A stretch of DNA of 64,000 bases. Source: Ktedonosporobacter sp. (GTDB lineage Bacteria; Chloroflexota; Ktedonobacteria; Ktedonobacterales; Ktedonobacteraceae). The stretch's first letter is position 1; every line of letters begins with the position of its first letter. The stretch spans positions 1 through 64,000 of the forward strand of contig DATGMF010000079.1 in NCBI GenBank assembly GCA_035293765.1, written 5' to 3'. The position numbers and the translations under genes were made by a program. The notes beneath the pieces were generated by a model. That model was given only the letters and a program-made list of their open reading frames with translations. It made no database searches and was not told the origin of the DNA. Positions 27,893-58,198 of the stretch are shown here, in pieces.

Positions 27893-27900
27893 GAGCAGAG

Positions 27901-28234
27901 GGCAAGCGCAAGGCCCCCTCCCAGGCCCATGCACCTCCCCTTGCCCCTACCGGTTCAGGGTTTACGTACGTGTGGGGAGACGACGAACGTATGGGTAGGG
28001 GCAATGCCTTGCGCTTGCCCTGCTCGCTTCCCCGACCCATGCCCATCCCTGCGACCCATCCAAACGGTTTGTACAAGGTTCCACCGCAGGCCGTAGGGGC
28101 AAGGGGACGGGCAGACGGGGATGTGGGGGCCTTGCACTTGCTTGCCCTGCTGGCTGCACGAGGGGAAACGCAGGCCGTAGGGGCAAGGGGACGGGCAGAC
28201 GGGGATGTGGGGGCCTTGCACTTGCTTGCCCTGC
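27901..28234. repeat. GC-rich intergenic repeat cluster: two 65-bp tandem direct repeats plus imperfect inverted/partial copies
   Basis: Unit gcaggccgtaggggcaaggggacgggcagacggggatgtgggggccttgcacttgcttgccctgc at 28086-28150 and 28170-28234. An inverted relative lies at 27901-27955 (gcaagcgcaaggccccc...ccccttgcccctac) and a partial one at 27993-28040. Confidence 0.65.
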
Positions 28235-28256
28235 CAGACCTGAAAGGAGATACAAC

Positions 28257-29204: not shown

Positions 29205-29247
29205 GAAGTTTAGAGGAGTCAGGCTTCTCGAAGATAGGTGCATTTGC

Positions 29248-29287
29248 GAGTCACAATCCCCACGAAGCTTCGTGGGGATTGTGACTC
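29248..29287. promoter_or_regulatory. perfect 40-bp palindrome (20-bp arms) between convergent lipoprotein and anti-sigma genes
   Basis: gagtcacaatccccacgaag|cttcgtggggattgtgactc. Neither strand has a following U-tract, so it may be a protein-binding site rather than a simple intrinsic terminator. Confidence 0.5.
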
Positions 29288-29293
29288 AAAAAC

Positions 29294-30787: not shown

Positions 30788-31332
30788 CGTTTCTCACCTT
30801 TTTCCCAGTCTTTGTAGAACCTCCGCAGGCTCTGGAGTGTACGGAACAGGATCATCCGTACTGCTCCCGCGCTTTTTTCGACAGCAGGGGCTATTTCCTC
30901 ACATTTCAGGCCATGGCCAAACCGCAAGCGCAACACCTCTTGCTGAAGTTCTGGCAGGGCTCGTATCGTGCTAGAAAGCCAGATGAACTCTTCGCGTTGA
31001 AGACTGATCTGCTCTGGAGCCTGGTGCTCGTCTTCACAAAATGACTCGGAGAGCCATTCTATGGGAACGTATGGGTGACGAATGGAACGCCGGTAGTAAT
31101 CCACAACTTTGTTGCGAGTAATGGTCCAGAGCCAGGCCTCTTGCTTTTTCGCATCGAAGGTCGGAAACCGTTTGTTCTGTAAAACAGAGAGAAAGACCTC
31201 TAGCACAATATCTTCAGCGTCTTCGCGTGATGCAGTTTGCTGATAGACATAGGCGAAAAGGCTCGAAGCATAATGGCGGTAGAGTTCCGCATAGAGTGAG
31301 TGCTCCAAAAGTTCAGCTTCCTTGTGTTGCAT
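30784..31332 (-). CDS. ECF-type RNA polymerase sigma-70 factor
   Basis: Region 2 YRHYASSLFAYVYQQTASREDAEDIVLEVFLSV and region 4 LPELQQEVLRLRFGHGLKCEEIAPAVEKSAGAVRMILFRTLQSLRRF. Confidence 0.85.
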   Translation of the reverse strand: MQHKEAELLEHSLYAELYRHYASSLFAYVYQQTASREDAEDIVLEVFLSVLQNKRFPTFDAKKQEAWLWTITRNKVVDYYRRSIRHPYVPIEWLSESFCEDEHQAPEQISLQREEFIWLSSTIRALPELQQEVLRLRFGHGLKCEEIAPAVEKSAGAVRMILFRTLQSLRRFYKDWEKGEKR

Positions 31333-31551
31333 ATCTATCCTCTAGAGGTTTTTGAGATCTCATCAGGTATCTCGTCCAGAAGCGAAAAATGTCACACACT
31401 CAAAAAGAGAAATCAAAAACGGAGAGAAAAATGATGAAGCTGCCGAGGAAAAAAGAGGATAAGAATCTACTCAGAAAGAGCAAGCTACAGAGCTATGAGC
31501 ATAGGCGCCCATAGCTCTGCATATACAAACCAGACCGTTCCGGTACAAAGA

Positions 31552-33087
31552 TTACGATGTACTACAGGCCGCTCCATTGAGCGTGAAGGCGGTGGGCACC
31601 GTGTTGCTGCCACTCCAGTTGGCATTAAAGCCTGGAGGCGAGCTCAGCGTCGCTCCCGCCGGAATAGAGCCGTTATAGGACAGGTTGGTGATCGTTACCG
31701 TTGCGCCACTTTGCGTAAAATTCCCATTCCACAGTTGCGTGATCGTCTGCCCATTGGCGAAGCTAAAGCGCAAAGTCCAGCCGTTGATCGCCGTCGTGCC
31801 CGTGTTGGTGATCGTGAAGCTCGCCCCAAAGCCGGTATTCCACTGATTGGTGATCGTATACACCACTTTGCAGCTCGCGCCGCCGGTTGGGGTCGGTGTC
31901 GGGCTTGGGGTAGAGGTGGGAGTTGCTGTTGGCGTATTCGTGGGCGTGTTTGTCGGTGTGGGCGTAGGCGTGCCGCCACCACCTAGAGAAAGAAGGTGGG
32001 CTTTATACCCTGCCCCATAGTTCGTGGGAGTGCCGGTATAGTCGGCAAGCAGCGACGGCGTGCCGCCGCAATTCCCCGTCACCGTCCAGGTCCAGGCCAT
32101 GTAGCCGGTGCTGTGCTGATCGAGCCAGGTCGTGAGCGTATTAATAAAGCCTGAGGCACAGTCATTCTCGCCGATCTCGCCAGCCAGAACGGGCACCTGT
32201 GCGATTACCGGCGCGATTTGTGAGTCCCAACAACTTGTATTAGAACAGGCATTAAAGTTGTAGATATGCGTCGAGGCCGCCAGATTGTTCTGCGGATCGC
32301 TAGGCTTGTTTGCCAGCCATTGCGAGAGATCATTGGAGAAGGCCAGTCCTCCCAGCATCAGTACGTTGGTCGCACCGGTCGCACGGACCGTATTGACCAG
32401 CGTTTGCATCCCCGCCACAGCGAAACCAACGCCTGAGCATGCGCCGGACTGGGGAGCCGTGCTGCCGTTGAGCCAGCAGGACCAGCTCACGTCGTGCGGC
32501 TCATTGTACAGATCGAAGATCACCGAAGAGTTGCTCTTAAATGTATTGGCAACCGAGGTCCAGAAGGCGGGAGCGTGATCCAGGTCTGGCATCATCTGCT
32601 GACCGGTGGACTGATTGGTACCGGAATTATTCCAGTGCAAATCCAGGATCACGATCTGGCCGTTGGCGTTTAGTAAATTCACCCAGTTGACAATATCTGA
32701 CTGATACTGGGCCGCGGTTTTGTTGTTGGCGGGAAATCCATTGATACCAAGCCAGCAGTCTTCGTTCAGGGGGACACGGACGATATTGGTGCCCCAGGCG
32801 ACCATAGCACTGACAGTAGCCTGATCAATTGGCCCATCAAAGTCGGTGGGAGCGTTGGTCGCGCTCTTGGTACACTGGTATTCTGTGCCCATGCGATCAA
32901 CGCCGTGAGGCACAATGACATGACCACTGCCATCCTCAAGTTTATTGCCAACGACGTGCAGCCCCGTCGGCACGCTGGCTGCTTTGACCGAGCCTGGCGG
33001 TCGTGATGTGAAGATCATTGCCGCCGAGCAGAGAAGCAGAGCTACAACGGCGAGCATCAATAGTCGAAAGCGTTTTTTGCTTTGCAT
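31552..33087 (-). CDS. GH5 endoglucanase with C-terminal CBM2
   Basis: GH5 acid/base motif VIFDLYNEPHD; nucleophile region VLAGEIGENDC. PT-linker plus CBM2 ([25 protein letters not shown]...). Signal peptide present; RBS aaggagga. Confidence 0.9.
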   Translation of the reverse strand: MQSKKRFRLLMLAVVALLLCSAAMIFTSRPPGSVKAASVPTGLHVVGNKLEDGSGHVIVPHGVDRMGTEYQCTKSATNAPTDFDGPIDQATVSAMVAWGTNIVRVPLNEDCWLGINGFPANNKTAAQYQSDIVNWVNLLNANGQIVILDLHWNNSGTNQSTGQQMMPDLDHAPAFWTSVANTFKSNSSVIFDLYNEPHDVSWSCWLNGSTAPQSGACSGVGFAVAGMQTLVNTVRATGATNVLMLGGLAFSNDLSQWLANKPSDPQNNLAASTHIYNFNACSNTSCWDSQIAPVIAQVPVLAGEIGENDCASGFINTLTTWLDQHSTGYMAWTWTVTGNCGGTPSLLADYTGTPTNYGAGYKAHLLSLGGGGTPTPTPTNTPTNTPTATPTSTPSPTPTPTGGASCKVVYTITNQWNTGFGASFTITNTGTTAINGWTLRFSFANGQTITQLWNGNFTQSGATVTITNLSYNGSIPAGATLSSPPGFNANWSGSNTVPTAFTLNGAACSTS

Positions 33088-33273
33088 GTATTCCTCCTTA
33101 ATGCATTTCCGCTTGACATCTTCGGATTCGATGGTATACTTCCCCTCAAAAGGGGCGGCGGAAGCCAGTGGCTATCACGACCTGCTTGAGGGTACTGAAA
33201 ATTAATCAGGCGAGGTGAATGTGACGTCATAAAAAACCGCTGTACGTACATAGCTAGGGAAGCCCGTTACAAA

Positions 33274-33295
33274 GGCGACTGAGCATTCAGTCGCC
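33274..33295 (-). terminator. short hairpin downstream of the GH-A gene (weak U-tract)
   Basis: Minus RNA reads GGCGACUGA-AUGC-UCAGUCGCC-UUUGU, 21 nt after the stop. Confidence 0.4.
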
Positions 33296-33316
33296 TTGCC
33301 ACAAGCCAGGGATTGC

Positions 33317-35314
33317 TCATGAGGTGCTGCATGCAGCACCGTTGAGCGTAAACGAGGTCGGGTTGAGATTGCTGCCGCTCCAGGAGGCGTTGAAGCCAGG
33401 GGGGGAGCTCAAAGTGGCTCCCGCCGGGATCGAGCCGTTATAGGACAGGTTGCTGATCGTCACCGCCGCGCCATTTTGCGTAAAATTGCCGTTCCACAAT
33501 TGCGTAATTGTTTGCCCATTGGCGAAACTAAATTGCAAATTCCAACCGTTAATTGCCGTTGTGCCCGTATTGGTGATCGCGAAGCTCGCGCCAAAGCCGG
33601 TGTTCCACTGATTCGTCACTGTATACACTACCTTGCAGCTCACTCCTGAAGGCGTCGGGCTGGGCGTCGGACTCGGCGTATTGGTAGGTGTCGCTGTGGG
33701 CGTATTGGTGGGCGTGGGTGTGGGCGTTCCTCCCGTGCCTGGCTGTAAAACAATCGTCGTGAGCGAATACGGTGCGATACTGATGCCGCTGAGCGAGCCC
33801 TGGGCTGAGCTGATTGAGTTGCTGCTCTGACCGTAGGTGTAAAGCGTCGCGTTGGCAGCCGCGCTGTAGCCATTGAGCGAGAGAGCCACCGTGTACGTGG
33901 TACCAGGATCTTTGTTGATCAAGAGCAGTGCCAGATTGCCATTGGCCTGCTTGACCGCGTGGACCGCTACCAGGCTTTGATTAGACGAGGAGGAGACCAT
34001 CGTATCCCCCGGGCCAAACAGGTGAGAGAGCATCTGCAAGCCATAATATGGTGGGAATGGGGTATCTGCTGGCGGCTCAGTGATGCCTCCAGACGAACTG
34101 CCATTGGATAAGACGCCCATATCCCCGTAGTTGGCCGTGCCATAGAGGCTGGAGCTATTGTCCCCGCTGGTCACGATGCCATTGTGCTCCGCCCACCAGT
34201 CCACGTTGAAGACGCCGTTTTCCAGCCAGGTCATATACGCGTCGGCCAGAAAGAGGCCATTGACCAGGCTGACCGTTTGCTTACCAGGAGGGAAGCCGCC
34301 GCCGTTCGAGTTCATTTCGGTCACGGCAATGCCGACCTGGCTGGCTCTGGAGCCAAGATATTGCCCATAGAGCGAGCGCAGCGTCGCGACCTTGCCGGCA
34401 ATTTCCGCCGGACTGCCGAGCAAGCCAGCGTCGCTGTAGTTGCCGCCAGAGGCGTAATCGGTGTACCAGTGAATGTCGCCGAAGTCTATAAAGGGGCCGG
34501 CGATAGAGAGCACGGTATGATTCCAGTCCATCGTATCGCCATCATTAGTATCAACGACCCCATCAGGCCAATCGCCAGGAGTCGTCAGCACCACACCAAC
34601 CTTGATGGTCGGGTCAACAGCTTTCATGGCCTGGATGATCTGTACAGCATTCTGAGCGTAGGCGGTGGCTCCCTTCTTCGAATGGATGTCATATTCCCAG
34701 TTGGCGGTATAACTGCCATTGCCGTAAACTTCGTTGCCAACCTCCCAGTATTTGATACCGTAGGTATGGCCTGTACTGCTGCCTCCTGTATAGGTGGGAA
34801 CCGGACCATTATAGCCAGGACCCCCTTTGTTAGCGTACTGCACCCAGTTGGCGGCTTCCTGCGCTGTGCCTGAGCCATAGTTCACGGTAACGATTGGCTG
34901 CGCATCGGACCCGACCGCCTGAACAGCGCCCATGAAGGCATCAAAGGTATTGCTGGGATTGGCAAAGCTCTGGCCCGGTACCGTTGTATTCGACTGCCAA
35001 TGGTAGACATCCGAGGTCGAGCCGCCGGGATAGCGTATGGTTTTGACGTTGGCGCTCTTGAGCAAGGTGGCCGCTGTAGCATCGAGCATATTCCCATTCC
35101 AGACGGCGGTATTGATGCCCTCGCTTGCAGTGGTGAAAGTGCCAAGCGACTGGCCGGCATTGATAGTGATCTGGGCGCTGGTGGCTGCGACCGCGTGCCC
35201 CAATGGGCTAAATAGCACGATGGAGAAGATCAAAATGCAACACATTGCCGCGCAAGCAATCACTGTGTTGCTCCTGGGGGACAGATACGAACTGACGAAC
35301 AACTTCCTTGTCAT
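33317..35314 (-). CDS. clan GH-A (beta/alpha)8 glycoside hydrolase (GH5/GH30/GH44/GH51-like; family unassigned) with C-terminal CBM2
   Basis: IRYPGGSTSDVYHWQ and GIKYWEVGNEVYG (acid/base NE motif) are typical of clan GH-A. C-terminal PT-linker plus CBM2 ([25 protein letters not shown]...). Confidence 0.8.
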   Translation of the reverse strand: MTRKLFVSSYLSPRSNTVIACAAMCCILIFSIVLFSPLGHAVAATSAQITINAGQSLGTFTTASEGINTAVWNGNMLDATAATLLKSANVKTIRYPGGSTSDVYHWQSNTTVPGQSFANPSNTFDAFMGAVQAVGSDAQPIVTVNYGSGTAQEAANWVQYANKGGPGYNGPVPTYTGGSSTGHTYGIKYWEVGNEVYGNGSYTANWEYDIHSKKGATAYAQNAVQIIQAMKAVDPTIKVGVVLTTPGDWPDGVVDTNDGDTMDWNHTVLSIAGPFIDFGDIHWYTDYASGGNYSDAGLLGSPAEIAGKVATLRSLYGQYLGSRASQVGIAVTEMNSNGGGFPPGKQTVSLVNGLFLADAYMTWLENGVFNVDWWAEHNGIVTSGDNSSSLYGTANYGDMGVLSNGSSSGGITEPPADTPFPPYYGLQMLSHLFGPGDTMVSSSSNQSLVAVHAVKQANGNLALLLINKDPGTTYTVALSLNGYSAAANATLYTYGQSSNSISSAQGSLSGISIAPYSLTTIVLQPGTGGTPTPTPTNTPTATPTNTPSPTPSPTPSGVSCKVVYTVTNQWNTGFGASFAITNTGTTAINGWNLQFSFANGQTITQLWNGNFTQNGAAVTISNLSYNGSIPAGATLSSPPGFNASWSGSNLNPTSFTLNGAACSTS

Positions 35315-43067: not shown

Positions 43068-48265
<5,198 letters not shown>

Positions 48266-48266
<1 letters not shown>

Positions 48267-51235
48267 TGAATTTTACTGTTGGCTCGCTGGTCAAAGCACG
48301 CGGACGCGAGTGGGTCGTCCTGCCGGAATCCGATGATCAGGTGTTGGTCCTGCGCCCGCTGGGAGGGAGCGAGCAGGAAGTGACCGGCATTTATCGCGGC
48401 CTGGAGGAGGTGGAGGCGGCTTCGTTTGCCCTGCCCGATCCGCAGGCGCTGGGCGATTATCGTTCGTGTCGCCTGTTGCGAGACGCGGTCCGCCTGGGCT
48501 TTCGGACCAGCGCCGGTCCTTTCCGCTCGTTCTCCCATATCGGGGTAGAGCCGCGCCCCTACCAGTTTGTGCCGCTGCTGCTGGCCCTCAAGCTCGATCC
48601 GGTGCGCCTGTTGATCGCCGATGACGTGGGCATTGGCAAAACCGTCGAAGCCTGCCTGATTGGTCGCGAACTGCTGGATCGCGGCGAGATCGAGCGCATG
48701 GCAGTGCTCTGTCCGCCGCACCTGGCCGAACAGTGGCAGGTGGAACTGCGCGAGAAATTTCATATCGAGGCGGTGCTGGTGCTGGCGAGTACGGCGACAC
48801 AGCTTCAACGGACCTGCCGCTTTGACGAGTCGATTTTCGAGCGCTATCCCTTTGTGATCGTCTCAACCGATTTCATCAAAGCCGACCGCAGGCGCGACGA
48901 ATTCCTGCGCACCTGCCCCGAATTCGTGATCGTGGACGAGGCGCATACCTGCACGGATGCCGGCGCTGGACGCGGACGCCAGCAGCGCTACGATCTGGTG
49001 GCAAGTCTGGCTGCTCATGCTGAACGGCATCTGGTGCTGGTCACGGCCACGCCCCATAGCGGCAACGAAGCGGCCTTCCGCTCGCTACTCAGCCTGCTCA
49101 AGCCAGAGTTCGCGGCCCTGCCCGAAGATTTGACCGGCCAGCAGCATGAACGCGAGCGGCGCACGCTGGCGGCCCATTTTGTGCAGCGGCGACGCGCTGA
49201 TATCACCGCCTATCTTCACACCAATACTCCCTTCCCTGACCGCAAGGAGAGCGAGCAGCACTACACGCTCACCCCCGCGTACCGGCGGCTCTTTGAGCGC
49301 GTGTTGCACTACGCCCGCGAGACGATTAGCGATCCGGCGGATGGCAACAGGCATCGCCAGCGGGTGCGCTGGTGGTCGGCCCTGGCCTTGCTCCGCTCCC
49401 TGGCCTCCAGTCCGGCGGCGGCGGCTGCCACCCTGCGCAATCGCGCCAGCACGGCTGATACTTCCGACGAAGCTGAGGCCGACCGGATCGGACGCCATAC
49501 GGTGATGGATCTGCTGGACAACGAGTCGAGCGAAGGGGTCGATATTGTGCCGGGCAGCGATTACGAGGAGCAGCAGGCGGGCGAGTCAAGTTTGCGCAAG
49601 CGTTTGCAGGCGATGGCTCGTGAGGCCGAGGCGCTCAAAGGCGCGCAGGATGCCAAACTGTTGCAGGCGGTGAAGATCGTCAACGACCTGCTCAAAGATG
49701 GCTTTCAGCCGATCCTCTTCTGCCGCTTTATTCCCACGGCTGAATATGTGGCGCAGGAGCTGAGTACGCGCCTGCCAAAAGATATCCAGGTCGAGGCGGT
49801 GACGGGCCTGCTGCCGCCGGTGGAGCGCGAAAACCGCATCCTGCAACTGGCGGAGCAGCCCAGGCGCGTGCTTGTTTGCACCGATTGCTTGAGCGAGGGC
49901 ATCAACCTGCAAGAGCATTTTAACGCGGTCATCCACTACGATCTTTCATGGAACCCCACGCGCCATGAACAGCGCGAAGGGCGGGTGGACCGCTATGGTC
50001 AGGCCAGCCCCCAGGTGCGCGTGGTGACGTACTACGGCCACGATAATCCAGTTGATGGCATTGTGCTGGAAGTCCTGATCAAAAAGCATCATACCATTCG
50101 CACCTCGCTGGGTATCTCGGTGCCGGTACCGGTCAATAGCGAGCAGGTGCTGGAAGCGATCTTGGAGGGCGCATTGCTGCGCGGCCATAGTAGCTCGCCT
50201 TCCAGCCTGCAAATGACCCTGCCGGGCCTGGAAGACCCGCGCGAGGAGCAGTTCTGGTTGCAATGGGAGGCCAACGCGGCCCGCGAGAAGCGTTCGCGTA
50301 CCATGTTCGCCCAGGAGAGCATTAAGCCCGACGAGGTTGCGGCGGAACTGGCGGCCATGCGCTCGGCGATGGGGTCCGCTATCGACGTCGAGCACTTTAT
50401 CCGCGATGCGTTGAGCGAATACGGTGCTGCCGTCTCGCCGCTCAACAATGGTGCGCTCCAGGTGGATTACAGCACCATGCGGGGTCCGCAACCAGCACAG
50501 AGCGTACACGAGGCTCGCGGCTTGAAAGAGACCCTTCAGGCGGTACTGCGCCACGATCAGAAGGACAGGCGTTTCAGGGCGCGCTTCGAACTGCCTGTTC
50601 GTGAGGGAGAATTGTATTTGAGCCGCACGCACCCGCTGGTCGAGAGCGTGGCGGCGTACGTGATGGATGCCGCGCTCGATTCGACGACTGGCAGCGAGAG
50701 CATCGCCAAACGCTGCGGTGTGATGCGCACCAGCCAGGTTGAGCGGCGCACCACTCTGCTGCTGCTCCGCCTGCGCTACCATATCGTGACCACGCAGCGC
50801 GGACAGGCTGAACGGACGCTGCTGGCCGAGGATTGCCAGGTGCTGGCCTTCCAGGGTTCACCCATGAGTGCCCGCTGGCTTGACGATAAAACCCTGGTCG
50901 AACGCCTGCTTGAGGCGCGGCCCGATGGCAATATCTATGAAGATCAGGCGCGGCAATTTCTGTGCCAGTTGCTTGCAGAGATCGAGCATGTGCAGCCATA
51001 TCTGACCGAGATAGCCGAGCAGCGAGCGCAGGAACTCGCGACCGCGCATCGCCGTGTGCGCCAGGCCGCCCAGGCGCGCGGCCTGCAATACCGCGTCGAG
51101 CCGCAAATGCCGGTTGACATCCTGGGCATCTATCTCTATTTGCCCAAGATCGCGTCAACCCCACAAGGCAAGAGCGAAGCACCGTCGTATCGACCTGATT
51201 ATGAGCATGAACGACCAAGATCGGCAAGGTCGTAG
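48266..51235 (+). CDS. SNF2-family helicase/ATPase (DrmD-like), translationally coupled to upstream gene (TGATG overlap)
   Basis: SNF2_N: RPYQFVPLLLALKLDPVRLLIADDVGIGKTVEA; DEAH box FVIVDEAHTC. Helicase_C: VLVCTDCLSEGINLQEHFNAVIHYDLSWNPTRHEQREGRVDRYGQ. Confidence 0.85.
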
Positions 51236-51389
51236 GGACCCGATTATATCGCGTCCGATTTATCGCCCGTCCCCGTTGGCGACCGGTCGGCAGCGAGCAG
51301 AAGTCGAAAAAGGAACGGGTTCGACAAGGGGAAAGGAGAGGCGATGGCGAGGGGGAGCGCTGAAGCGGACGCGATATAATCGGGTCGCT
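51236..51389. repeat. intergenic element with 27-bp near-perfect inverted repeats flanking ~108 nt (MITE-like or large RNA stem) between SNF2 and methyltransferase genes
   Basis: cgtagGgacccgattatatcgcgtccg (51232-51258) vs the reverse complement of 51367-51393 (cgtagCgacccgattatatcgcgtccg); 1 mismatch. Confidence 0.6.
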
Positions 51390-51469
51390 ACGAAGGCCCA
51401 AGGTCGCGTCGTTCCCAACCCATTGGCGTTCATCATCTTACATCACAACCTGGAAAAGGAAAAGTAGTC

Positions 51470-54400
51470 ATGGTAGCATACCAGAAGCGACAGCAAACCA
51501 TCTTCTCGACCATCCATAGCGAGGGGGCGATCCTGCCGATGGACCTGCTGCAACGCATCAGCGACCCGCAGAACGCCCAGCTTGAGGGTCTGACCCCCGA
51601 CGCCTATCACCTCGAAACGATCAAGCTGAACGAGGCGATTAACCGCGCGTGGACCAGCCTGCTGGGCGTCTGGCAGCGGTTCCGGCATGAACAGAAGCGG
51701 TTGACGGAGCACGAGAGTGGGACGACGCTGACACGCGAACGCTGGCTGCTGCCATTATTTCAAGAACTGGGCTATGGTCGCCTGCAAACGAAATCCCCCC
51801 TGGTGGTGAGCGAGCGCAGCTACGCGATCTCGCACGGCTGGGAAGGCACGCCGATTCACCTCGTGAGCTACAAGGTGGCGCTGGACCATAGCGTACACTT
51901 TGAGAGTGGCGCGCGGCGTAGCAGCCCTCACAGCCTGCTACAAGAACTACTCAACCGTTCAAAAGAGCATCTGTGGGGCATCGTCTCCAACGGGCTGCGC
52001 TTGCGTCTGCTGCGCAATAATGTGAGCCTGACGCGCCAGGCGTATGTCGAGTTTGATCTGGAGGCGATGTTCAACAACGAGGTCTATGCCGATTTTGTGC
52101 TGCTCTGGCTGCTGTGCCATCAATCGCGGATGGAGGGGGAGCGCCCGGCGGATTGCTGGCTGGAGAAGTGGTCGCAGGAGGCTCATACGACCGGGACGCG
52201 CGTGCTCGAAGATCTGCGCGAGAACGTCGAACACGCCATCAAGGAACTGGGCAGCGGCTTTCTGACCCACCCGGCCAACGGCCAGTTGCGCGAGCAACTG
52301 AGTACGGGGACGCTGAGCGCGATGGATTACTACAAGCAGCTCCTGCGTATCGTGTACCGCCTGCTGGTGCTCTTCGTGGCCGAGGATCGCGGCATCCTCT
52401 TCGACCCAGCCGCGCCCCAGTCCGCCCGCGAGCTGTACACCCGCTATTACTCGACGATGAAGTTGCGCTTCCAGGCTGACCGGCAACTGGGGACGCGCCA
52501 CAGCGACCTGTACTATGGCCTCAAGCTGGTGATGGAGAAGCTGGGCCAGGAGCGCGGCTGCCCGGAGCTGGGTCTGCCCGCGCTCAACGGCTTTCTCTTC
52601 TCGCCCAGAGCGGTCAGCGATCTTCAGGAGTGCCAGCTCGCCAACTATGCCCTGCTGGCGGCGGTGCGTCACCTGGCCTATACCGAACGCGGGCGCACAC
52701 GGCGCATCATCGATTACAAAAACCTGGGCTCCGAAGAACTGGGCAGCGTCTACGAATCGCTGCTGGAGCTGCACCCGGTCTTCCATCTCGATACCGGTAC
52801 ATTCGAGCTTGCCAGCGCCAGCGGCAACGAGCGCAAGACCAGCGGCAGCTACTACACTCCCACCAGCCTGATCACCTGCCTGCTCGACTCGGCCCTCGAT
52901 CCCGTGCTGGACGAAGCGGCGAACAAGCCCAATGCCGAAGCTGCCATTCTCAGCCTCAAAGTCTGCGATCCCGCCTGTGGCAGCGGTCACTTCCTGGTTG
53001 CCGCCGCGCATCGCATCGCCAAACGGCTGGCCGCCGTGCGCACCGGAGACGAGGAGCCAGCGCCGGAAGCGCGCCGCCACGCCCTGCGCGATGTCGTCGG
53101 ACGCTGTATCTACGGCGTGGACATGAACCCGATGGCGGTGGAACTGTGCAAGGTCAGCCTGTGGATGGAGGCTATCGAGCCAGGCAAGCCGTTCTCCTTC
53201 CTCGATGCCCACATCCAATGCGGCAATAGCCTGCTGGGCGCGACTCCGGCCCTGCTCAAAGCGGGCATCCCTGACGCGGCCTTTGAGCCGATAGAGGGCG
53301 ATGATAAGAAGGTCTGTGGGGAATTTAAGAAGCTGAACAGACAGCAGCGCGAGGGCAACGTCAGCCTCTTCCGCGAGGACCGCGGCGAGCCGATCTGGGA
53401 GCAGCAAGGGACGCTGCTGCATTCGATGCTGGAAGTTGAAGCGATGCCCGACGACAACTTCGCGCACATTCACCGCAAAGATGCCTCCTTTGACAAACTG
53501 CGCAAGTCGGAAATCTACCAGAACGCCCTGCTGTGGGCCAACGCCTGGTGCGCCGCCTTCGTCTGGAAGAAGACCGCCGAGATGCGCCCGCCGATCACCG
53601 ACGAAGAGTTCCGCGACATCGGCAAAAATCCCTTCACGCTCCCGGGCTGGCGCAAAGCCGAAATCAAGCGGCTGGCCGCGCAATACCAGTTCTTCCACTG
53701 GCACCTCGCCTTCCCCGACGTCTTCCGCGTCCCTCCCCGAGGTAAGCCGCCCGAGAGCGAGCAGGCAGACTGGTCCGGCGGCTTCGATGTGGTGCTGGGG
53801 AATCCGCCGTGGGAACGCATCAAACTTCAAGAGAAAGAGTGGTTTGCCAGTCGCCAACCGGAGATCGCCAATGCCGCCAACGCCGCCCTGCGCCGCAAAA
53901 AGATCGCGGCCCTGAAGGACGAAAATCCCGCGCTGTTCCAGGCATTTATGGACGACCAGCGCAAAGCCACCGGCGAAAGCCATATCGTGCGCGATAGTGG
54001 CCGCTACCCCCTCTGTGGTCGCGGCGATGTCAATACCTACTCGATTTTCGCTGAGAACATGCGAACAATCATCTCTTCTCAAGGGCGCGTGGGATGTATT
54101 GTGCCTTCAGGAGTGGCAACGGATGATACAACAAAGGTTTTCTTTCAAGATTTGATGCAATCCAGGTCTTTGCTTTCACTATATGATTTTGAGAATCGAG
54201 ATGCTATCTTTTCTGGAGTTCATCGAAGCTATAAATTTTGCCTGTTAACCTTAACTGGTTCGGCTCGCCCTGCCTCTCGTGGAGCAGAATTCTTCTTCTT
54301 CGCTCATGATACTGCCGATTTGCAAGAGAAAGAGCGGCGTTTTGTTCTCTCGGCCCGCGATATTGAGTTGCTGAACCCGAACACGCGCACTTGCCCGATC

Positions 54401-55468
54401 TTCCGTACAAAGAGAGATATGACAATCACAAAATCTGTCTATTCTCGTGTACCAGTGCTGATTAAGGAAGGCTCAACAGGGTATAACGTGTGGAACGTTT
54501 CCTTTGCCTCAATGTTTCATATGACAAATGACTCCCACCTTTTCCAGATGCGTGAGCAGCTAGAGAACGAGGGCTGGAGGCTGGTTGGCAATGCTTTCCA
54601 GAAGGATGGGGAAGTGTGCCTGCCTTTATACGAGGGCAAGATGATTTCACATTTTGACCATCGCTTTGCCGCTTATGGTGAGGAACAGGGAGACCATGAA
54701 AGTATAGCGGGTGCCGCGCAAAATGCTGACCCTCACAAGCTCAATCTGCCGCGCTACTGGGTGCATGCATCCCACATGCCGACTCTAACACAGCGCAGAA
54801 AGGTATTGCTGGCTTTTCGGAGCATTGCTCGCTCTACAGATATACGCACAATCATATCTAGTATTGTCCCCAATACTCCTTGTGGCAATAGCTTAATCGT
54901 CGCTTTAATTAATGAGCACAGCTCAAAACTGCTGTTTCTGCCTGTTTCTATCTCATCATTTGTGTTTGATTATATTGCGAGACAAAAGACTGGCGGAGCC
55001 AATTTAAACTTTTTCATCCTCAAGCAACTCCCCGTTCCTCCACCCGATACCTACAAAGCCGCGTGTGGGTGGGATCACCAACATACTATCGGCGAATGGA
55101 TAGTGCCGCGAGCGATGGAACTCACGTACACCGCCTGGGACCTCGCGGCGTTCGCCAGAGATTGCGGCTATGATGGGCCGCCTTTCAGGTGGGATGAGGC
55201 GCGGCGCTTCCTGCTGCGCTGCGAGCTGGACGCGGCGTACTTTCACCTGTATGGGATTGAGCGGGAGGATGTGGACTATATTATGGACACGTTCCCCATT
55301 GTCAAGCGCGGGGATGAGAAGCAACACGGGGAGTATCGCACGAAGCGGGTGATTCTGGAGATGTATGATGAGATGCGGCGGGCGATGGAGACGGGGGAGG
55401 CGTATCGGACGCGGCTGGTGCCAGAACCGGCAGGTGCGGGGGTGCGGCATGAGGGGAAGAACGAGTAG
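51470..55468 (+). CDS. large gamma-class N6-adenine DNA methyltransferase (DrmMI / PglX / type IIG-IIL family) with N-terminal unassigned domain and C-terminal TRD
   Basis: Motif I VCDPACGSGHFLVAAAHRI (~52966). Motif IV VVLGNPPWERIK (~53800). Motif order I then IV means gamma class; 1332 aa. The ~54080-55010 portion is markedly AT-richer than the rest of the gene. Confidence 0.85.
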   Translation: MVAYQKRQQTIFSTIHSEGAILPMDLLQRISDPQNAQLEGLTPDAYHLETIKLNEAINRAWTSLLGVWQRFRHEQKRLTEHESGTTLTRERWLLPLFQELGYGRLQTKSPLVVSERSYAISHGWEGTPIHLVSYKVALDHSVHFESGARRSSPHSLLQELLNRSKEHLWGIVSNGLRLRLLRNNVSLTRQAYVEFDLEAMFNNEVYADFVLLWLLCHQSRMEGERPADCWLEKWSQEAHTTGTRVLEDLRENVEHAIKELGSGFLTHPANGQLREQLSTGTLSAMDYYKQLLRIVYRLLVLFVAEDRGILFDPAAPQSARELYTRYYSTMKLRFQADRQLGTRHSDLYYGLKLVMEKLGQERGCPELGLPALNGFLFSPRAVSDLQECQLANYALLAAVRHLAYTERGRTRRIIDYKNLGSEELGSVYESLLELHPVFHLDTGTFELASASGNERKTSGSYYTPTSLITCLLDSALDPVLDEAANKPNAEAAILSLKVCDPACGSGHFLVAAAHRIAKRLAAVRTGDEEPAPEARRHALRDVVGRCIYGVDMNPMAVELCKVSLWMEAIEPGKPFSFLDAHIQCGNSLLGATPALLKAGIPDAAFEPIEGDDKKVCGEFKKLNRQQREGNVSLFREDRGEPIWEQQGTLLHSMLEVEAMPDDNFAHIHRKDASFDKLRKSEIYQNALLWANAWCAAFVWKKTAEMRPPITDEEFRDIGKNPFTLPGWRKAEIKRLAAQYQFFHWHLAFPDVFRVPPRGKPPESEQADWSGGFDVVLGNPPWERIKLQEKEWFASRQPEIANAANAALRRKKIAALKDENPALFQAFMDDQRKATGESHIVRDSGRYPLCGRGDVNTYSIFAENMRTIISSQGRVGCIVPSGVATDDTTKVFFQDLMQSRSLLSLYDFENRDAIFSGVHRSYKFCLLTLTGSARPASRGAEFFFFAHDTADLQEKERRFVLSARDIELLNPNTRTCPIFRTKRDMTITKSVYSRVPVLIKEGSTGYNVWNVSFASMFHMTNDSHLFQMREQLENEGWRLVGNAFQKDGEVCLPLYEGKMISHFDHRFAAYGEEQGDHESIAGAAQNADPHKLNLPRYWVHASHMPTLTQRRKVLLAFRSIARSTDIRTIISSIVPNTPCGNSLIVALINEHSSKLLFLPVSISSFVFDYIARQKTGGANLNFFILKQLPVPPPDTYKAACGWDHQHTIGEWIVPRAMELTYTAWDLAAFARDCGYDGPPFRWDEARRFLLRCELDAAYFHLYGIEREDVDYIMDTFPIVKRGDEKQHGEYRTKRVILEMYDEMRRAMETGEAYRTRLVPEPAGAGVRHEGKNE

Positions 55469-55564: not shown

Positions 55565-58198
55565 ATGGCAACTCAGGGATCGCTAACCCGCGAAGGGATG
55601 CTTGCGGGAATGCAGCAGGCTCTTGATGAAGAGATCGCAGAAAAGATCGCCAGACCGAATATTAAGCATAGTGCCGTGGACGGCAAACTCGTTTCTGTAG
55701 GCAACGGCCAGTATATTTACCAGTTTACTTTGCTCGAACCCTGGACGCCCGACGATGATACGTCGCTCTCCATTGTGAACGCAGAAGCAAAAAGTATCAA
55801 GTGTAGCGTCGTTACCTCGACCGGCACCTTGCTGACCATCGCTTCAGATCAAGCATTGCCTCCAGCTCAGCTGAGCCAGATCAATCTGAGCGACGACTCG
55901 ACTGAACTCCTCAAGCGCCAGAAGGAAGCTTTGAAACATGTCGAGGAAGGGAAAAATCAGCTTGCCTCGAAATGCTTTGGCCTGATCGCGTATCGGTATA
56001 TAACCGCTGCGAGCGACAAACGCTTTGGAAAGTGGAAGCTGCGTAACAACCAATATATGGCGGCACAGAGGACCCTGGGCGGTGAGATCGCTTTTATTGT
56101 CGGCCCTCCTGGCACTGGCAAGACCCTGACGCTGGCCGCTATCGCCGCGCATAACAATATCGCCATCGATAATGCGATCATGAAGCCCTGTGAGTTGTGC
56201 AAAAGCGCGGGCAGGCCGGATCTGCTCAGAGATGGGCAGGTTGTGCGCTTTGGTGCAGTGCAAAAAGCCGAACTCAAAGATAATGCCGAGTACGCGGAAG
56301 TCTATCTGCCCAAAATCGCTCACTCCCTGGGCGTTGCGACCCAGGAGCGCCAGAAGGCCGTTAAAGCTGAATTGGATCAGATCACGCAAAAGCTGACAAG
56401 CATACTGCAACAGCGGCGAGGGAGCAGCGGACCATTAGAGCAGCAATTGAGCGAAATAACTGCTCAAATCGCGCGCTGGAATCAGGAACTGGCTCCCCTG
56501 GAGCAGGAAGGGCAGCGCCATATTGCCTCCCTGCAAGCTCAGCAGAAGCAATATACAGCAAACCACGGCCGCCTGCAACGGGAGGCTACTCAAGCCGGAC
56601 AGCAGCTTGCCAGGGCGAAAGCGCAAGAGGAGGAGCGGAAACGCGAACTTGAGCACTGGAAGCAACAGAAGCAGCAGACAGTGACACGGCTGGTTGAAGC
56701 GCGAGCGATGAGCGGTATCAAGCGTCTCTTCAAAGGTCCCAGCCTGAAGGCGCTGGAAGACCAGGTCGCGCAATGCAGCCATAAAGTCTATGTAACCCGG
56801 CAAGCACTGGATGCCCTTCAACCAGAAGTGAAGCGCGTGCAAAAGGCGTTTTCCCAGCACACGCAAGAGTTGGAGATGAGCGAGCAACAGTTAAAGGCCA
56901 TCCTGGAACAGTTACATACACCCACCGAACGAGCGCAACGAATAGCAGAGCTGAGGGAGCAGAAAGCTTATGCAGGGCAGCGAACCACCAGCATCCAGGC
57001 AACATTGAAGCAAAAGAAAGCAGGCGCTGCTGCGGAGACGCAAGCTTTGCAGGCTCAAAAGAACCGCCTGGAGACAGCGTTGGCGGAGCTGGATCAGCAA
57101 TTGCGAGACATCGAGAAGAGCATCGTCGAGAAGGCCCTGGTTGTTGGCACAACGCTCACCAAAACCTACATGAATCAAGCCGTTGCGAGCAGGCGTTTTG
57201 ATGCCGTCATTCTCGATGAGGTCTCGATGGCACCTATGCCGCTTGTCTATCTGGCAGCTACTCACGCCGAACGCTCCGTAACCCTCATTGGCGATCCACG
57301 GCAGCTCGCACCAACAGTCTCATCTGACAAGCCAGCGGCTCGGCAGTGGTTGGGCAAAGATATTTTCGATCTCAGAGGAATTTCTTTAGAAGCTGCCGAT
57401 CAACTTTTCCAGCATAGCATCTTGCTGAATGTGCAATCACGTATGCACCCTGACATTTCGCGTATAGCGAGGGAACTGATCTACGACGATAAATTGCATG
57501 ACGATCCAACATTGCCAAAAGAGGCGCAACCGCTGTTCCCACTGCCCACATCCCCGCTGGTGCTCTGTGATACGCAAGACGCTTCCCCGCTTGCAACACG
57601 ACCCTCTCGTGGGCGATCATGGAAAAATTACTATCATGCGCTCTGCTGCATCACTCTGGCGCGTAAGATGCTAGAGGAGCACTCCGATCTCAAGAAAAAA
57701 AGAAACGAACCGGCTATCGGCATTGTCACGCCTTATCGTGCGCAGGCGCAACTATTACAAAGCCTCTTGAAGGATGCTGGATTGCAAACCCATGTACAGG
57801 CGGGGACGATACACCGTTTCCAGGGCCTGGAATTTGAGATCATCCTATTTGATACGGTTGCCTCTACTGGCTCCCATGCGAGCGAGTTTATTGCTGGCGG
57901 CCATGGCTCAAATTCGATGCGCCTCTTGAATGTCGCGGTCACGCGTGCGAAACAAAAACTCGTCATCGTTGCTAATCCAGGCTTTATCCAGGAACAGTTC
58001 CAGGAGAGTCCCATCATGCACCAGGTTGTACTGATGGCTGCAGGAACTGCTACTATTCCCTCGCTCAATGTGGCGGGCACGTCATTCTCCTCTCTTGTCG
58101 CGAAAGCACGTCGTGCGCATCCAGAAGTCACTGCTCCAGAGGTGATCCTGGCTCTACTCGATATGAAATTTACGGCGCGTAAAGCGAGACCCATATAG
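55565..58198 (+). CDS. Upf1/DNA2-like SF1B helicase (AAA_11/AAA_12) with ~290-aa coiled-coil insertion between Walker A and Walker B
   Basis: Walker A FIVGPPGTGKTLT. Long Q/E/K/R/A-rich heptad region (~aa 230-520). Walker B VILDEVSMAP, III LIGDPRQLAPTV, IV VQSRMHPDISR, V IGIVTPYRAQAQ, VI LNVAVTRAKQKLVIV. ATG at 55565 with RBS gaaaggga; the track used an upstream TTG. Confidence 0.8.
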   Translation: MATQGSLTREGMLAGMQQALDEEIAEKIARPNIKHSAVDGKLVSVGNGQYIYQFTLLEPWTPDDDTSLSIVNAEAKSIKCSVVTSTGTLLTIASDQALPPAQLSQINLSDDSTELLKRQKEALKHVEEGKNQLASKCFGLIAYRYITAASDKRFGKWKLRNNQYMAAQRTLGGEIAFIVGPPGTGKTLTLAAIAAHNNIAIDNAIMKPCELCKSAGRPDLLRDGQVVRFGAVQKAELKDNAEYAEVYLPKIAHSLGVATQERQKAVKAELDQITQKLTSILQQRRGSSGPLEQQLSEITAQIARWNQELAPLEQEGQRHIASLQAQQKQYTANHGRLQREATQAGQQLARAKAQEEERKRELEHWKQQKQQTVTRLVEARAMSGIKRLFKGPSLKALEDQVAQCSHKVYVTRQALDALQPEVKRVQKAFSQHTQELEMSEQQLKAILEQLHTPTERAQRIAELREQKAYAGQRTTSIQATLKQKKAGAAAETQALQAQKNRLETALAELDQQLRDIEKSIVEKALVVGTTLTKTYMNQAVASRRFDAVILDEVSMAPMPLVYLAATHAERSVTLIGDPRQLAPTVSSDKPAARQWLGKDIFDLRGISLEAADQLFQHSILLNVQSRMHPDISRIARELIYDDKLHDDPTLPKEAQPLFPLPTSPLVLCDTQDASPLATRPSRGRSWKNYYHALCCITLARKMLEEHSDLKKKRNEPAIGIVTPYRAQAQLLQSLLKDAGLQTHVQAGTIHRFQGLEFEIILFDTVASTGSHASEFIAGGHGSNSMRLLNVAVTRAKQKLVIVANPGFIQEQFQESPIMHQVVLMAAGTATIPSLNVAGTSFSSLVAKARRAHPEVTAPEVILALLDMKFTARKARPI

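What the first reader, a model, noticed from the sequence alone, without database searches (positions are those of the whole stretch)
51232..51393. 27-bp near-perfect inverted repeats bracketing ~108 nt between the SNF2 and MTase genes (MITE-like insertion or large regulatory RNA stem)
cgtagGgacccgattatatcgcgtccg (51232-51258) is mirrored, with one mismatch, by the reverse complement of 51367-51393. The element fills most of the 234-nt gap inside an otherwise tightly packed, translationally coupled operon.

As RNA it would form a long stem sequestering the region just downstream of the SNF2 stop. As DNA it resembles a miniature inverted-repeat element. Either way it could decouple or regulate MTase expression relative to the helicases.
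Basis: seen in the sequence. Interest (0 to 1): 0.6.

Follow-up and report, generated by a model that had tools for sequence, protein, structure and literature searches.

The report
Palindromic repeat pair inside defence operon
The inverted repeat is real: it is one copy of a short palindromic repeat family scattered through this soil bacterium's genome, it landed between two genes of an anti-phage operon and now supplies the stop codon of the upstream gene, and it is an ordinary kind of bacterial junk-like repeat rather than a new device.

Summary
Arms 51231-51257 and 51366-51392 are complementary with one mismatch and bracket 108 nt. Looser pairing extends to 51230-51275 / 51348-51393, and the fold is far more stable than shuffles.

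It is not unique. Each arm is a ~27-45-nt unit: GTAG, then the imperfect palindrome GGAC-c-CGAT/ATCG-c-GTCC, then a tail. At least 9 more units lie in 20.7 kb of what is almost certainly the same Ktedonosporobacter population. Others occur in a related Ktedonobacteraceae-like MAG and two soil contigs. They appear as singletons, GTAG-outward inverted pairs, nested pairs and tandem arrays, all between genes or at gene 3' ends.

The closest orthologous operon (90% aa identity) lacks it. There, about 67 nt stand where the window has 294 nt (51147-51440). The SNF2 gene lost its native stop, gained about 25 codons, and now ends at the TAG of the left unit's GTAG.

Best reading: a head-to-head dimer of GTAG-type REP units (BIME/REPIN-like). 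Mobilisation by a RAYT-type transposase is inferred, not tested. Operon regulation is possible but unsupported, because orthologous spacers range from 17 to 181 nt. It is a new member of a known kind.

The parts
51231..51257 (+). Left arm, the core of REP-like unit 1 (CGTAG-GGACcCGAT-TAT-ATCGcGTCC-G). With its tail the unit runs to about 51275.
   Evidence: Exact pattern match. nhmmer hit 51231-51266, E=1.2e-11, against a 12-unit profile. Alignment with 18 other units.
51366..51392 (-). Right arm, the core of REP-like unit 2 in inverted orientation (GTAG facing outward). With its tail the unit spans about 51348-51395.
   Evidence: One-mismatch match. nhmmer hit 51392-51356, E=6e-11. 88% identical over 50 nt to unit L004:3319-3368.
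51258..51365 (.). The 108 nt between the arms. The outer parts (51258-51275, 51348-51365) are the unit tails and still pair. The central ~72 nt (51276-51347) is a unique spacer.
   Evidence: No similarity of the central part to any other locus.
51233..51235 (+). TAG stop codon of the SNF2/DrmD-like gene, supplied by the GTAG tag of unit 1.
   Evidence: ORF 48167-51235. Gene call 48266-51235 = P0001, 989 aa. Sequence.
51147..51440 (.). Lineage-specific 294-nt segment. It replaces about 67 nt of the closest orthologous operon (L022). It holds the two units, the spacer and flanks of unknown origin.
   Evidence: Pairwise alignment of the window with L022. Homology ends after TTGCCCA (51146) and resumes at ATCACAA (about 51441).
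51146..51232 (+). Codons for the novel C-terminal tail of the SNF2 protein (KIASTPQGKSEAPSYRPDYEHERPRSARS). Twenty-one orthologues all end 2-4 residues after ...YLP.
51196..51218 (+). Outer weak inverted repeat, left half. It pairs with 51423-51446 and may be a decayed outer unit pair.
   Evidence: Inverted repeat I3. Local alignment score reached by 3 of 300 shuffles. Marginal nhmmer hit 51186-51202, E=5.5, not significant.
51423..51446 (-). Outer weak inverted repeat, right half.
51455..51472 (+). Purine-rich ribosome-binding region (AAAAGGAAAAG) and the ATG of the DrmMI-like methyltransferase, downstream of the element. This stretch is conserved with L022.
   Evidence: The MTase N-terminus MVAYQKRQQ is conserved in L016 and L022.
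48266..51235 (+). SNF2 helicase gene (DpdE/DrmD-like), 989 aa.
   Evidence: Pfam SNF2-rel_dom and Helicase_C. PADLOC DpdE 888 bits, DrmD 278 bits. Gene call in L006.
51470..55468 (+). Eco57I/N6-type DNA methyltransferase gene (DrmMI-like), 1332 aa.
43068..48266 (+). 1732-aa DEAD/Helicase_C/MZB(DUF1998)/DUF559 helicase (DruE/DrmA-like), the first gene of the operon. Its end overlaps the SNF2 start by 1 nt.
55565..58198 (+). AAA_11/AAA_12 (MkoA-like) helicase gene, 877 aa, the last gene of the operon.

Best explanation
The element is a head-to-head (GTAG-outward) dimer of two copies of a short palindromic repeat unit. This is a GTAG-tagged REP-type unit, and the pair has a BIME/REPIN-like architecture. 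The unit is dispersed through the genome of this Ktedonosporobacter population and some Ktedonobacteraceae relatives.

Shown here:
- The unit (GTAG, then GGAC-c-CGAT / 2-3-nt loop / ATCG-c-GTCC, then a tail of about 15-20 nt) recurs in intergenic DNA.
- It occurs as singletons, inverted pairs, nested pairs and tandem arrays.
- The copy in the window sits in a 294-nt segment that the closest orthologous operon lacks.
- Its arrival removed the native stop of the SNF2 gene. That gene now reads about 25 extra codons and stops at the TAG of the left unit's GTAG.

Inferred from what is known of GTAG REPs:
- The units are spread, or were once spread, by a RAYT-type HUH tyrosine transposase. Such an enzyme acts on the single-stranded hairpin and uses GTAG as a guide or cleavage signal. 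That would explain the absence of target-site duplications.
- The element is essentially selfish or neutral here.

Inferred side effects:
- In the operon mRNA the two units pair into a ~27-bp near-perfect stem, about -86 kcal/mol for the whole fold, that begins 2 nt before the stop codon.
- This stem could slow termination of the SNF2 ORF, block 3'-exonucleases, or be cut by RNase III. Any of these would uncouple the helicase half from the methyltransferase half of the transcript.
- The methyltransferase keeps its own ribosome-binding site downstream of the stem.
For: Family membership:
- An exact 19-21-mer of the core is found in two contigs of one MAG and in three metagenome contigs.
- A profile of 12 units finds 9 units in L027 (20.7 kb), 5 in L002 (8 kb), and 1-2 each in L001, L003 and L005.
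- L027/L004 carries a protein named Ktedonosporobacter sp. and comes from at least 5 of the same samples as the window's contigs.
- The window's arms are most similar to L004 units, at 88-91% over 43-50 nt including tail and flank.

REP-like anatomy:
- GTAG is present in 16 of 19 units. Two units have GTAC and one has ATAG.
- The stem is 96.5% paired. One A-T to G-C compensatory change occurs, and the other sequence differences fall mostly in the loop centre and the GTAG-proximal positions.

Arrangements:
- GTAG-outward pairs occur in the window, L002, L005 and L027.
- A nested 2+2 palindrome lies at L004 3215-3684.
- A 3x tandem array with 61-nt period lies in L002.
- Published GTAG REPs show exactly these arrangements: singletons, HH dimers 20-100 bp apart and clusters. 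They occur in Chloroflexi (PMC3733652).

Derived insertion:
- Orthologous SNF2 proteins all end at ...YLP plus 2-4 aa.
- The L022 alignment shows the replacement.
- Spacers in orthologues are 17-181 nt and unrelated.

No target-site duplication: where flanks resemble each other they are inverted, not direct.

Stability and reality. No U-tract terminator and no + strand promoter lie in the element.
Against: - No RAYT (Y1_Tnp) gene was seen in the roughly 200 kb of related DNA examined. The genome could not be scanned, so the mobilisation step is untested.
- The single-unit hairpin is weak: DNA dG -4.9 kcal/mol, z -1.2.
- Covariation support is not significant. There is one compensatory pair, and 99 of 500 shuffles score as high.
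- The published search rule of a fully paired basal stem of at least 7 bp (PMC6006769) is not met, because of the C.C mismatch.
- Spacers of different pairs are unrelated. So the pair as a whole is not a replicating REPIN 'master copy' in the sampled copies.
- Only this one pair occurs in about 81 kb around the window, whereas L027 has 9 units in 20.7 kb. Density is therefore very uneven.
- The boundary with the ancestral sequence is a replacement, not a clean insertion.
Confidence: 0.6

Rival explanations
1. It is a classical MITE. In this reading it is a deletion derivative of a DDE-type insertion sequence, its 27-bp arms are the transposase-binding terminal inverted repeats, and it is moved in trans by a full-length element elsewhere in the genome.
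For: There are near-perfect terminal inverted repeats, a small size (about 164 nt), an intergenic location and multiple copies in the genome. Short-read contigs break inside the repeat cluster, as they do at mobile repeats (L030 and L031 end inside the L027 13.2-13.6 kb cluster).
Against: - No direct target-site duplication flanks the window pair or the L002, L005 or L004 pairs. Where flanks resemble each other they are inverted.
- The 'TIR' occurs alone (L001, L003, L027 15831 and 18822) and in same-orientation tandem arrays (L002), which transposase ends do not normally do.
- Arm-to-arm distances vary from about 35 to about 430 nt, with unrelated interiors.
- No pair of units 0.7-3 kb apart enclosing a transposase ORF was found in the sampled loci.
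Confidence: 0.15
2. It is a selected cis-regulatory RNA structure, possibly an exapted repeat. In this reading the long intercistronic stem is kept because it sets the ratio of helicases to methyltransferase. It could do so by RNase III processing, by protecting the upstream mRNA from 3' exonucleases, or by damping termination or re-initiation at the SNF2 stop.
For: - The fold is very stable on the sense strand: -85.8 kcal/mol, z -6, about 6 kcal/mol better than the antisense strand.
- The stop codon is embedded in the stem.
- The sequence is invariant in 10 contigs drawn from ten sample or assembly accessions.
- Other orthologues also carry unrelated hairpins in this spacer, for example the 20-bp perfect stem in L018 (z -6.2).
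- From established knowledge of E. coli REP/BIME elements, REP stems can stabilise upstream mRNA, and stems close to stop codons can lower expression of the upstream gene.
Against: - No conservation. The nearest orthologue has an 81-nt spacer without the element. L021 has a 17-nt spacer with no hairpin, and the L016 and L019 spacers fold no better than about z -2.
- The same units sit next to unrelated genes: usp, hsdR, an aminoacyl-tRNA synthetase, an ABC permease and a response regulator. The sequence is therefore not specific to this operon.
- No Rfam family matches.
- There is no terminator-like U-tract and no internal promoter.
- The identity of the 10 contigs may simply reflect one clonal population.
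Confidence: 0.15
3. It is an array of binding sites for a sequence-specific DNA-binding protein (a nucleoid, partition or regulator protein). In this reading the palindromic core GGACcCGAT-N3-ATCGcGTCC is the operator, and pairs arise because such sites are often duplicated.
For: The 25-nt core is 100% identical between genomes whose MurD proteins are only about 80% identical, which suggests strong constraint on the sequence itself. The core is a dyad-symmetric motif.
Against: - The asymmetric GTAG tag and the asymmetric tail are conserved together with the dyad.
- The sites lie mostly at 3' ends of genes rather than in promoters.
- An orthologous unit in a close strain has diverged much faster than its flanks, which is unlike a conserved operator.
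Confidence: 0.05
4. It is a chance palindrome or an assembly artefact.
For: None found.
Against: 0 of 100 shuffles give even one match. 0 of 200 shuffles fold as well. The sequence is identical in ten assemblies. Related copies exist elsewhere.
Confidence: 0.01

Closest known systems
GTAG-tagged REP families (Di Nocera et al. 2013, PMC3733652), including the E. coli REP/BIME elements and the GTAG-23 family of the Chloroflexi member Thermomicrobium roseum
   Same: A short stem-loop is tagged at one end by an unpaired GTAG. The stem falls within the 5-13 bp range and the loop is 2-3 nt. Units occur as singletons, as HH dimers (GTAG outside) tens of bp apart, and as clusters or tandem groups. They lie mostly downstream of ORFs and sometimes overlap gene ends. 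Distribution among related species is patchy.
   Different: The sequence is unrelated to any family I could check. The stem is AT-rich in its inner half and interrupted by a C.C mismatch, so the single-unit hairpin is weak. The unit carries a conserved 15-20-nt tail. The 25-nt core is identical across genera. No RAYT was found because none could be searched for.
REPINs of Pseudomonas fluorescens (Bertels & Rainey 2011, PMC3116915)
   Same: [quoted passage not shown] Singlets coexist with doublets. The elements are presumed non-autonomous and lack target duplications.
   Different: In REPINs the whole doublet, spacer included, is the replicating unit, so copies share the spacer. Here the spacers of the sampled pairs are unrelated and range from about 35 to about 250 nt. 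The window pair (164 nt) is longer than typical REPINs.
Classical bacterial MITEs (for example Correia elements of Neisseria, and IS630- or IS5-derived MITEs)
   Same: Small, non-coding, with terminal inverted repeats, intergenic or at gene ends. They can be co-transcribed and form RNase III-sensitive stems, and they can change gene ends.
   Different: There is no target-site duplication. Solo 'ends' and head-to-tail arrays occur. No parent IS with the same termini was seen.
Subterminal hairpins of IS200/IS605 elements and their PATE derivatives
   Same: An imperfect hairpin plus an adjacent short guide or cleavage tetranucleotide would be recognised as single-stranded DNA by an HUH Y1 transposase. 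This is the mechanistic model I infer.
   Different: IS200/IS605 left and right hairpins lie on the same strand, not inverted. A TnpB gene lies a few kb left of the window (L023), but no unit of this family is near it.

Membership tests
GTAG-type REP (repetitive extragenic palindrome) | GTAG (or GTGG/GTRG) tetranucleotide, unpaired, 0-2 nt 5' of the stem-loop | tested here: met
   16 of 19 aligned units have GTAG directly abutting the stem. Two have GTAC and one has ATAG.
GTAG-type REP (repetitive extragenic palindrome) | Each unit is itself a stem-loop (stem 5-13 bp, loop 2-20 nt in PMC3733652; fully paired basal stem of at least 7 bp in the search rule of PMC6006769) | tested here: inconclusive
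   GGAC-c-CGAT / TAT / ATCG-c-GTCC is 96.5% paired across 18 distinct units, with one compensatory A-T to G-C change. This is not significant against shuffles (99/500). The hairpin is weak (dG -4.9 kcal/mol, z -1.2). The C.C mismatch breaks the rule of at least 7 bp fully paired.
GTAG-type REP (repetitive extragenic palindrome) | Many copies per genome, extragenic, mainly downstream of ORFs | tested here: met
   There are 9 units in 20.7 kb (L027) and 2 in the window, from what is very probably one population. There are 5 units in 8 kb of L002. All lie between ORFs or touch a 3' end. The genome-wide count was not obtainable.
GTAG-type REP (repetitive extragenic palindrome) | Occurs as singletons, HH/TT dimers and clusters | tested here: met
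   Singletons occur in L001, L003 and at L027 15831 and 18822. HH pairs occur in the window, L002, L005 and L027. A nested 2+2 arrangement lies at L004 3215-3684. A head-to-tail x3 array lies in L002.
GTAG-type REP (repetitive extragenic palindrome) | A RAYT (Y1 HUH transposase) gene in the genome, typically flanked by the REPs | not testable with these tools
No Y1_Tnp was seen among the window ORFs of 150 aa or more that were scanned or among the called genes of the fetched loci.
REPIN (REP doublet forming hairpin) | Two inverted REPs with a spacer that fold into one long hairpin | tested here: met
REPIN (REP doublet forming hairpin) | The whole doublet replicates, so copies share the spacer sequence and spacing | tested here: not met
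   The window spacer 51276-51347 matches nothing in any other locus. Pair spacings differ from about 35 to about 250 nt. Only a few pairs were sampled.
Classical MITE (DDE-transposon derivative) | Terminal inverted repeats | tested here: met
   27 nt with 1 mismatch.
Classical MITE (DDE-transposon derivative) | Target-site duplication flanking the element | tested here: not met
   No direct repeat abuts the arms in the window, L002, L005 or L004. Flank similarity is inverted. The comparison with L022 shows a replacement, not an insertion with a TSD. A 22-nt 82% direct repeat (51142-51163 / 51396-51417) is not adjacent to both arms and remains unexplained.
Classical MITE (DDE-transposon derivative) | A full-length autonomous element with the same termini | tested here: inconclusive
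   None was found in about 200 kb of sampled loci. The genome could not be scanned.
Intrinsic (Rho-independent) terminator | GC-rich stem followed by a U-tract | tested here: not met
   0 terminator-like sites in 50900-51700. CTACGAAGGCCC follows the stem.
Any curated RNA family (Rfam 15) | Covariance-model match at or near the gathering score | tested here: not met
   The only hit is a chance SNORD88 match outside the element, E=3.4.

The most novel reading that the evidence does not exclude
The repeat may be more than a passenger, in either of two ways.

(a) This GTAG-unit family may preferentially land on, or be retained at, stop codons. In 3 of the roughly 13 loci sampled, the TAG of GTAG is the stop codon of the upstream gene (the SNF2 gene here, hsdR in L002, and an aminoacyl-tRNA synthetase in L027). 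That would imply either target specificity for gene ends or a selected role in translation termination and mRNA 3'-end formation.

(b) The long stem may have been exapted in this DISARM/Dpd-like operon as an RNase III processing site or exonuclease barrier that sets the helicase:methyltransferase ratio. That would make it a repeat-derived regulator of a defence system whose toxicity depends on that ratio.
Probability: 0.12. Interest if true: 0.5.

Novelty: new member of a known kind. Interest (0 to 1): 0.3.

Why it matters
REP/REPIN-type repeats are well studied in Proteobacteria but hardly described in Ktedonobacteria. Two full-text searches pairing Ktedonobacteria or Chloroflexi with REP terms found no report of such a family in Ktedonobacteria.

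Recognising the family has four practical uses:
- It explains assembly breaks in these very large genomes.
- It explains a lineage-specific C-terminal tail on a defence helicase.
- It warns annotators that the 234-nt 'gap' and the odd protein end are repeat-derived.
- It gives a concrete, testable case of a selfish palindrome inserted between the helicase and methyltransferase modules of a DISARM/Dpd-like system, where altered stoichiometry could matter.

It does not reveal a new mechanism.

Tried and rejected
1. Rfam scan of 50800-51900 at E up to 10 found nothing relevant.
2. An exact-pattern scan of viral contigs gave 0 hits. blastn of the element against plasmids and phages gave no match. 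There is therefore no sign of a plasmid or phage origin.
3. I looked for an empty site.
   - brp13 (L016), L017/L018, L019, L021 and L022 all lack the element.
   - Their spacers are mutually unrelated, so only an approximate boundary (51147-51440) could be drawn. No TSD could be assessed cleanly.
4. I tested whether the flank motif conserved upstream of the MAG units (GAAATGATGCAT.AAAAA...) is also present in the window. It is not significant.
5. I tested a possible third, degenerate unit at 51186-51202. nhmmer gives E=5.5, which is not significant. The outer inverted repeat 51196-51218 / 51423-51446 is only marginal (3 of 300 shuffles).
6. I tested covariation in the single-unit hairpin. One compensatory pair is present but it is not significant.
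7. I checked whether the L001 unit is absent from a near-identical contig (L035), which would have given a filled/empty pair. It is present but heavily diverged.
8. I considered a CRISPR-like array for the L002 tandem units. This was rejected because the 'spacers' are identical, so it is a tandem duplication with 61-nt period.
9. I considered a promoter for the MTase or a terminator inside the element. Neither was found on the + strand.
10. I searched for a RAYT or other transposase among the window's genes. None was found. A TnpB gene lies a few kb beyond the left end of the window, but no unit is near it.
Full report
**1. Observation**

The sequence CGTAGGGACCCGATTATATCGCGTCCG lies at 51231-51257 on the + strand. 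Its reverse complement, with one mismatch (G to C at the sixth base), lies at 51366-51392.

- None of 100 dinucleotide-preserving shuffles of the 64-kb window produced even a single match at up to 3 mismatches.
- The complementarity continues inward to 46-nt arms, 51230-51275 / 51348-51393, 83% complementary.
- As RNA, 51225-51400 folds at -85.8 kcal/mol on the sense strand (z -6.0) and -79.5 kcal/mol on the antisense strand (z -7.1). No shuffle did as well.
- The SNF2 ORF ends at TAG 51233-51235, which is inside the left arm. The methyltransferase ATG is at 51470.
- The junction 51100-51480 is identical in ten contigs from ten sample or assembly accessions (NCBI, JGI and Logan). It is therefore not an assembly artefact.

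**2. Context**

The window is chromosomal DNA of a Ktedonosporobacter sp. population. The SNF2 product is 100% identical to NCBI HLG64837.1. The window carries housekeeping genes, a cellulase cluster and a four-gene defence-type operon:

- a 1732-aa DEAD/MZB/DUF559 helicase (DruE/DrmA-like);
- a 989-aa SNF2 helicase (DpdE/DrmD-like);
- a 1332-aa Eco57I-type methyltransferase (DrmMI-like);
- an 877-aa AAA_11/12 helicase.

**3. It is one copy of a repeat family**

An exact scan for the core of the arm found two loci in one MAG (L001, L002) and three metagenome contigs (L003-L005). Viral contigs, plasmids and phages gave nothing.

Aligning the copies defines a unit. It reads (C/G)GTAG, then GGAC-c-CGAT, a 2-3-nt loop, ATCG-c-GTCC, and a semi-conserved tail of 15-20 nt.

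A profile of 12 units then found further, more diverged copies:

- 9 units in the 20.7-kb locus L027, which contains L004;
- 5 in the 8 kb of L002;
- one or two each in L001, L003 and L005.

L027 very probably belongs to the same organism as the window:

- Its dienelactone hydrolase is named Ktedonosporobacter sp.
- It is found in at least five of the same samples as the window's contigs: 3300005607, 3300039487, SRR24677572, SRR24677575 and SRR24677604.
- G+C content is similar.
- The window's arms are most similar to the L004/L027 units, at 88-91% over 43-50 nt including the tail and the CCTTC flank.

The MAG titled 'Chloroflexia' has a MurD that is 80-94% identical to Ktedonobacteraceae proteins. 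All taxonomically placed carriers are therefore Ktedonobacteria; L003 and L005 were not placed. The 25-nt core is identical across carriers whose MurD proteins are about 80% identical.

About 100 kb from five orthologous operon loci of other relatives (L016-L022) contain no unit. The roughly 17 kb flanking the window also contain none. The distribution is thus patchy between genomes and uneven within one.

**4. Anatomy and arrangement**

- Units occur alone: L001, L003, and L027 at 15831 and 18822.
- They occur as inverted pairs with GTAG outward: the window, L002 at 4799/4886, L005, and L027 at 6044/6211.
- They occur as a nested 2+2 palindrome of about 460 nt, at L004 3215-3684.
- They occur as a three-fold head-to-tail array with 61-nt period, directly after hsdR in L002.
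- All lie between ORFs or touch a 3' end.
- Short-read contigs L030 and L031 end inside the L027 cluster.
- No direct target-site duplication flanks any pair. Where flanks resemble each other they are inverted.
- The interiors of different pairs are unrelated.

These are the arrangements published for GTAG-tagged REPs: singletons, head-head dimers 20-100 bp apart and clusters, predominantly downstream of ORFs. Such REPs are also present in Chloroflexi (PMC3733652).

The intra-unit hairpin is the weak point.

- It is 96.5% paired across 18 distinct units.
- It shows one compensatory A-T to G-C change (unit L027:6044).
- Much of the remaining variation is in the loop centre.
- The covariation is not significant (99 of 500 shuffles).
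- The hairpin alone is no more stable than shuffles (dG -4.9 kcal/mol, z -1.2).

**5. It is a derived insertion that rewrote a gene end**

Twenty-one orthologues, including the closest (P0123, 90% identical), end 2-4 residues after ...YLYLP. The window's protein instead continues KIASTPQGKSEAPSYRPDYEHERPRSARS.

Aligned with the P0123 locus (L022), homology stops after TTGCCCA (51146) and resumes at ATCACAA (about 51441). Here 294 nt of the window stand in place of about 67 nt.

Spacers at this position are 17 nt (L021), 81 nt (L022), 174 nt (L019) and 181 nt (L016). They are unrelated in sequence, and some carry other small palindromes. The methyltransferase ribosome-binding region and start are conserved and lie downstream of the element.

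In two other loci the TAG of a unit's GTAG is likewise the stop codon of the upstream gene. These are hsdR in L002 and a class-I aminoacyl-tRNA synthetase in L027.

**6. Mechanism**

Shown: family membership, architecture, derived state, stop-codon donation and a stable predicted stem.

Inferred, by analogy with REP/RAYT systems (PMC3116915, PMC3733652, PMC6006769): the units are propagated as single-stranded hairpins by an HUH tyrosine transposase that reads the GTAG. That would account for the missing target duplications, the solo units and the clusters.

Possible but untested consequences in the operon:

- The stem starts 2 nt before the stop codon. It could hinder termination, act as a 3'-exonuclease barrier, or act as an RNase III site.
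- It has no U-tract, and no + strand promoter follows it.
- Orthologous operons work with spacers from 17 to 181 nt without this element. I therefore regard a selected regulatory role as unsupported rather than excluded.

**7. Comparison and verdict**

- The element works like a REP head-to-head dimer (BIME/REPIN-like).
- Membership in the GTAG-REP superfamily is met for the tag, copy dispersal, location and arrangements. It is inconclusive for the unit hairpin and untestable for the RAYT.
- The strict REPIN criterion of a shared spacer is not met.
- The classical MITE criterion of a TSD is not met.
- It is a new member of a known kind. It is of modest interest, mainly as an annotation caveat for a defence operon and as the first description, as far as my two targeted literature searches show, of such a family in Ktedonobacteria.

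Noticed in passing
window 51233-51235; L002 ~6006-6010 (- strand); L027 6271-6274 (- strand): In three separate loci the TAG of a repeat unit's GTAG is the stop codon of the upstream gene. The genes are the SNF2 helicase, the type I hsdR, and a class-I aminoacyl-tRNA synthetase. This may reflect retention of in-frame insertions at gene ends, or a target preference.
   Followed up: partly
window 51142-51163 and 51396-51417: A 22-nt direct repeat, 82% identical (GCCCAAG.TCGCGTC...CCCA), spaced 254 nt apart. The first copy starts where homology with orthologues ends, and the second lies just outside the right arm. It is not a clean target duplication, and its origin is unexplained.
   Followed up: partly
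L002 5850-6010 (- strand): Three head-to-tail copies of the unit plus an identical 23-nt 'spacer' (period 61 nt) lie directly after hsdR. The last copy ends in a short hairpin (GGGACCCGATT...AAATCGGGTCCC). It looks like a CRISPR array at first glance but is a tandem duplication.
   Followed up: yes
L018 5560-5620; L019 12900-13010; L016 12940-12990: The same SNF2-MTase spacer in orthologous operons holds other, unrelated palindromes. L018 has a perfect 20-bp hairpin, GTGTGTTTTTTCTCATCGCC / GGCGATGAGAAAAAACACAC. L019 has two copies of GATGATGCTCGCCATCATC. The spacer seems to be a sink for small palindromic repeats.
   Followed up: partly
window 43068-48266: The first operon gene fuses a DEAD/Helicase_C helicase, an MZB (DUF1998) zinc domain and a C-terminal DUF559 (Vsr-like endonuclease) domain in one 1732-aa protein. 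PADLOC scores it best as DruE (Druantia). Its neighbours score as DpdE/DrmD and DrmMI, so the system is a hybrid of DISARM-, Dpd- and Druantia-like parts.
   Followed up: partly
L023 14894-16192 and L024 15201-16571 (a few kb left of window position 1): A TnpB (OrfB_IS605 / Cas12f-like) gene lies just outside the window. The two assemblies differ in gene order beyond it, which suggests strain-level rearrangement at this IS. No unit of the repeat family is nearby.
   Followed up: no
window 19121-35314: There is a cluster of secreted cellulases, each with a CBM2 module (GH6, GH48, GH9+CBM3, GH5, and a 665-aa CBM2 protein with no recognised catalytic domain). It is interleaved with an HTH regulator, an ECF-type sigma factor and a WD40 protein.
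   Followed up: no
L001 4395-4510 versus L035 11395-11440: Next to the L001 unit is a second, unrelated tandem repeat of about 55 nt (...GTGTACCCCAAAAGATCCCGAATTTGACAAAA...). It has two copies in the MAG and one in the near-identical ENA contig.
   Followed up: no
L001 4311-4350 versus L035 ~11510-11550: At the orthologous site of two strains whose flanks are 97-99% identical, the repeat unit differs at about 7 of 25 core positions (GACCCGATTATA versus GTCCC-ACCACA). It has diverged much faster than its surroundings.
   Followed up: no
L001/L002 (CAVUVQ01, MFD01213.bin.2.17): The record title calls this MAG 'uncultured Chloroflexia bacterium'. Its MurD is 80-94% identical to proteins named Ktedonobacteraceae, Dictyobacter or Tengunoibacter, so it is a Ktedonobacteria-type organism.
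   Followed up: yes
L030 and L031 contig ends; L017/L018 contig ends: Short-read contigs stop inside the repeat cluster of L027, and they stop 130-150 nt after the SNF2 gene in another lineage. This is consistent with repeats breaking assemblies at these spacers.
   Followed up: no
L020 4502-7399: An SNF2 orthologue (83% identical) stands alone between an MFS transporter gene and an amino-acid permease gene, without the large helicase or the methyltransferase.
   Followed up: no
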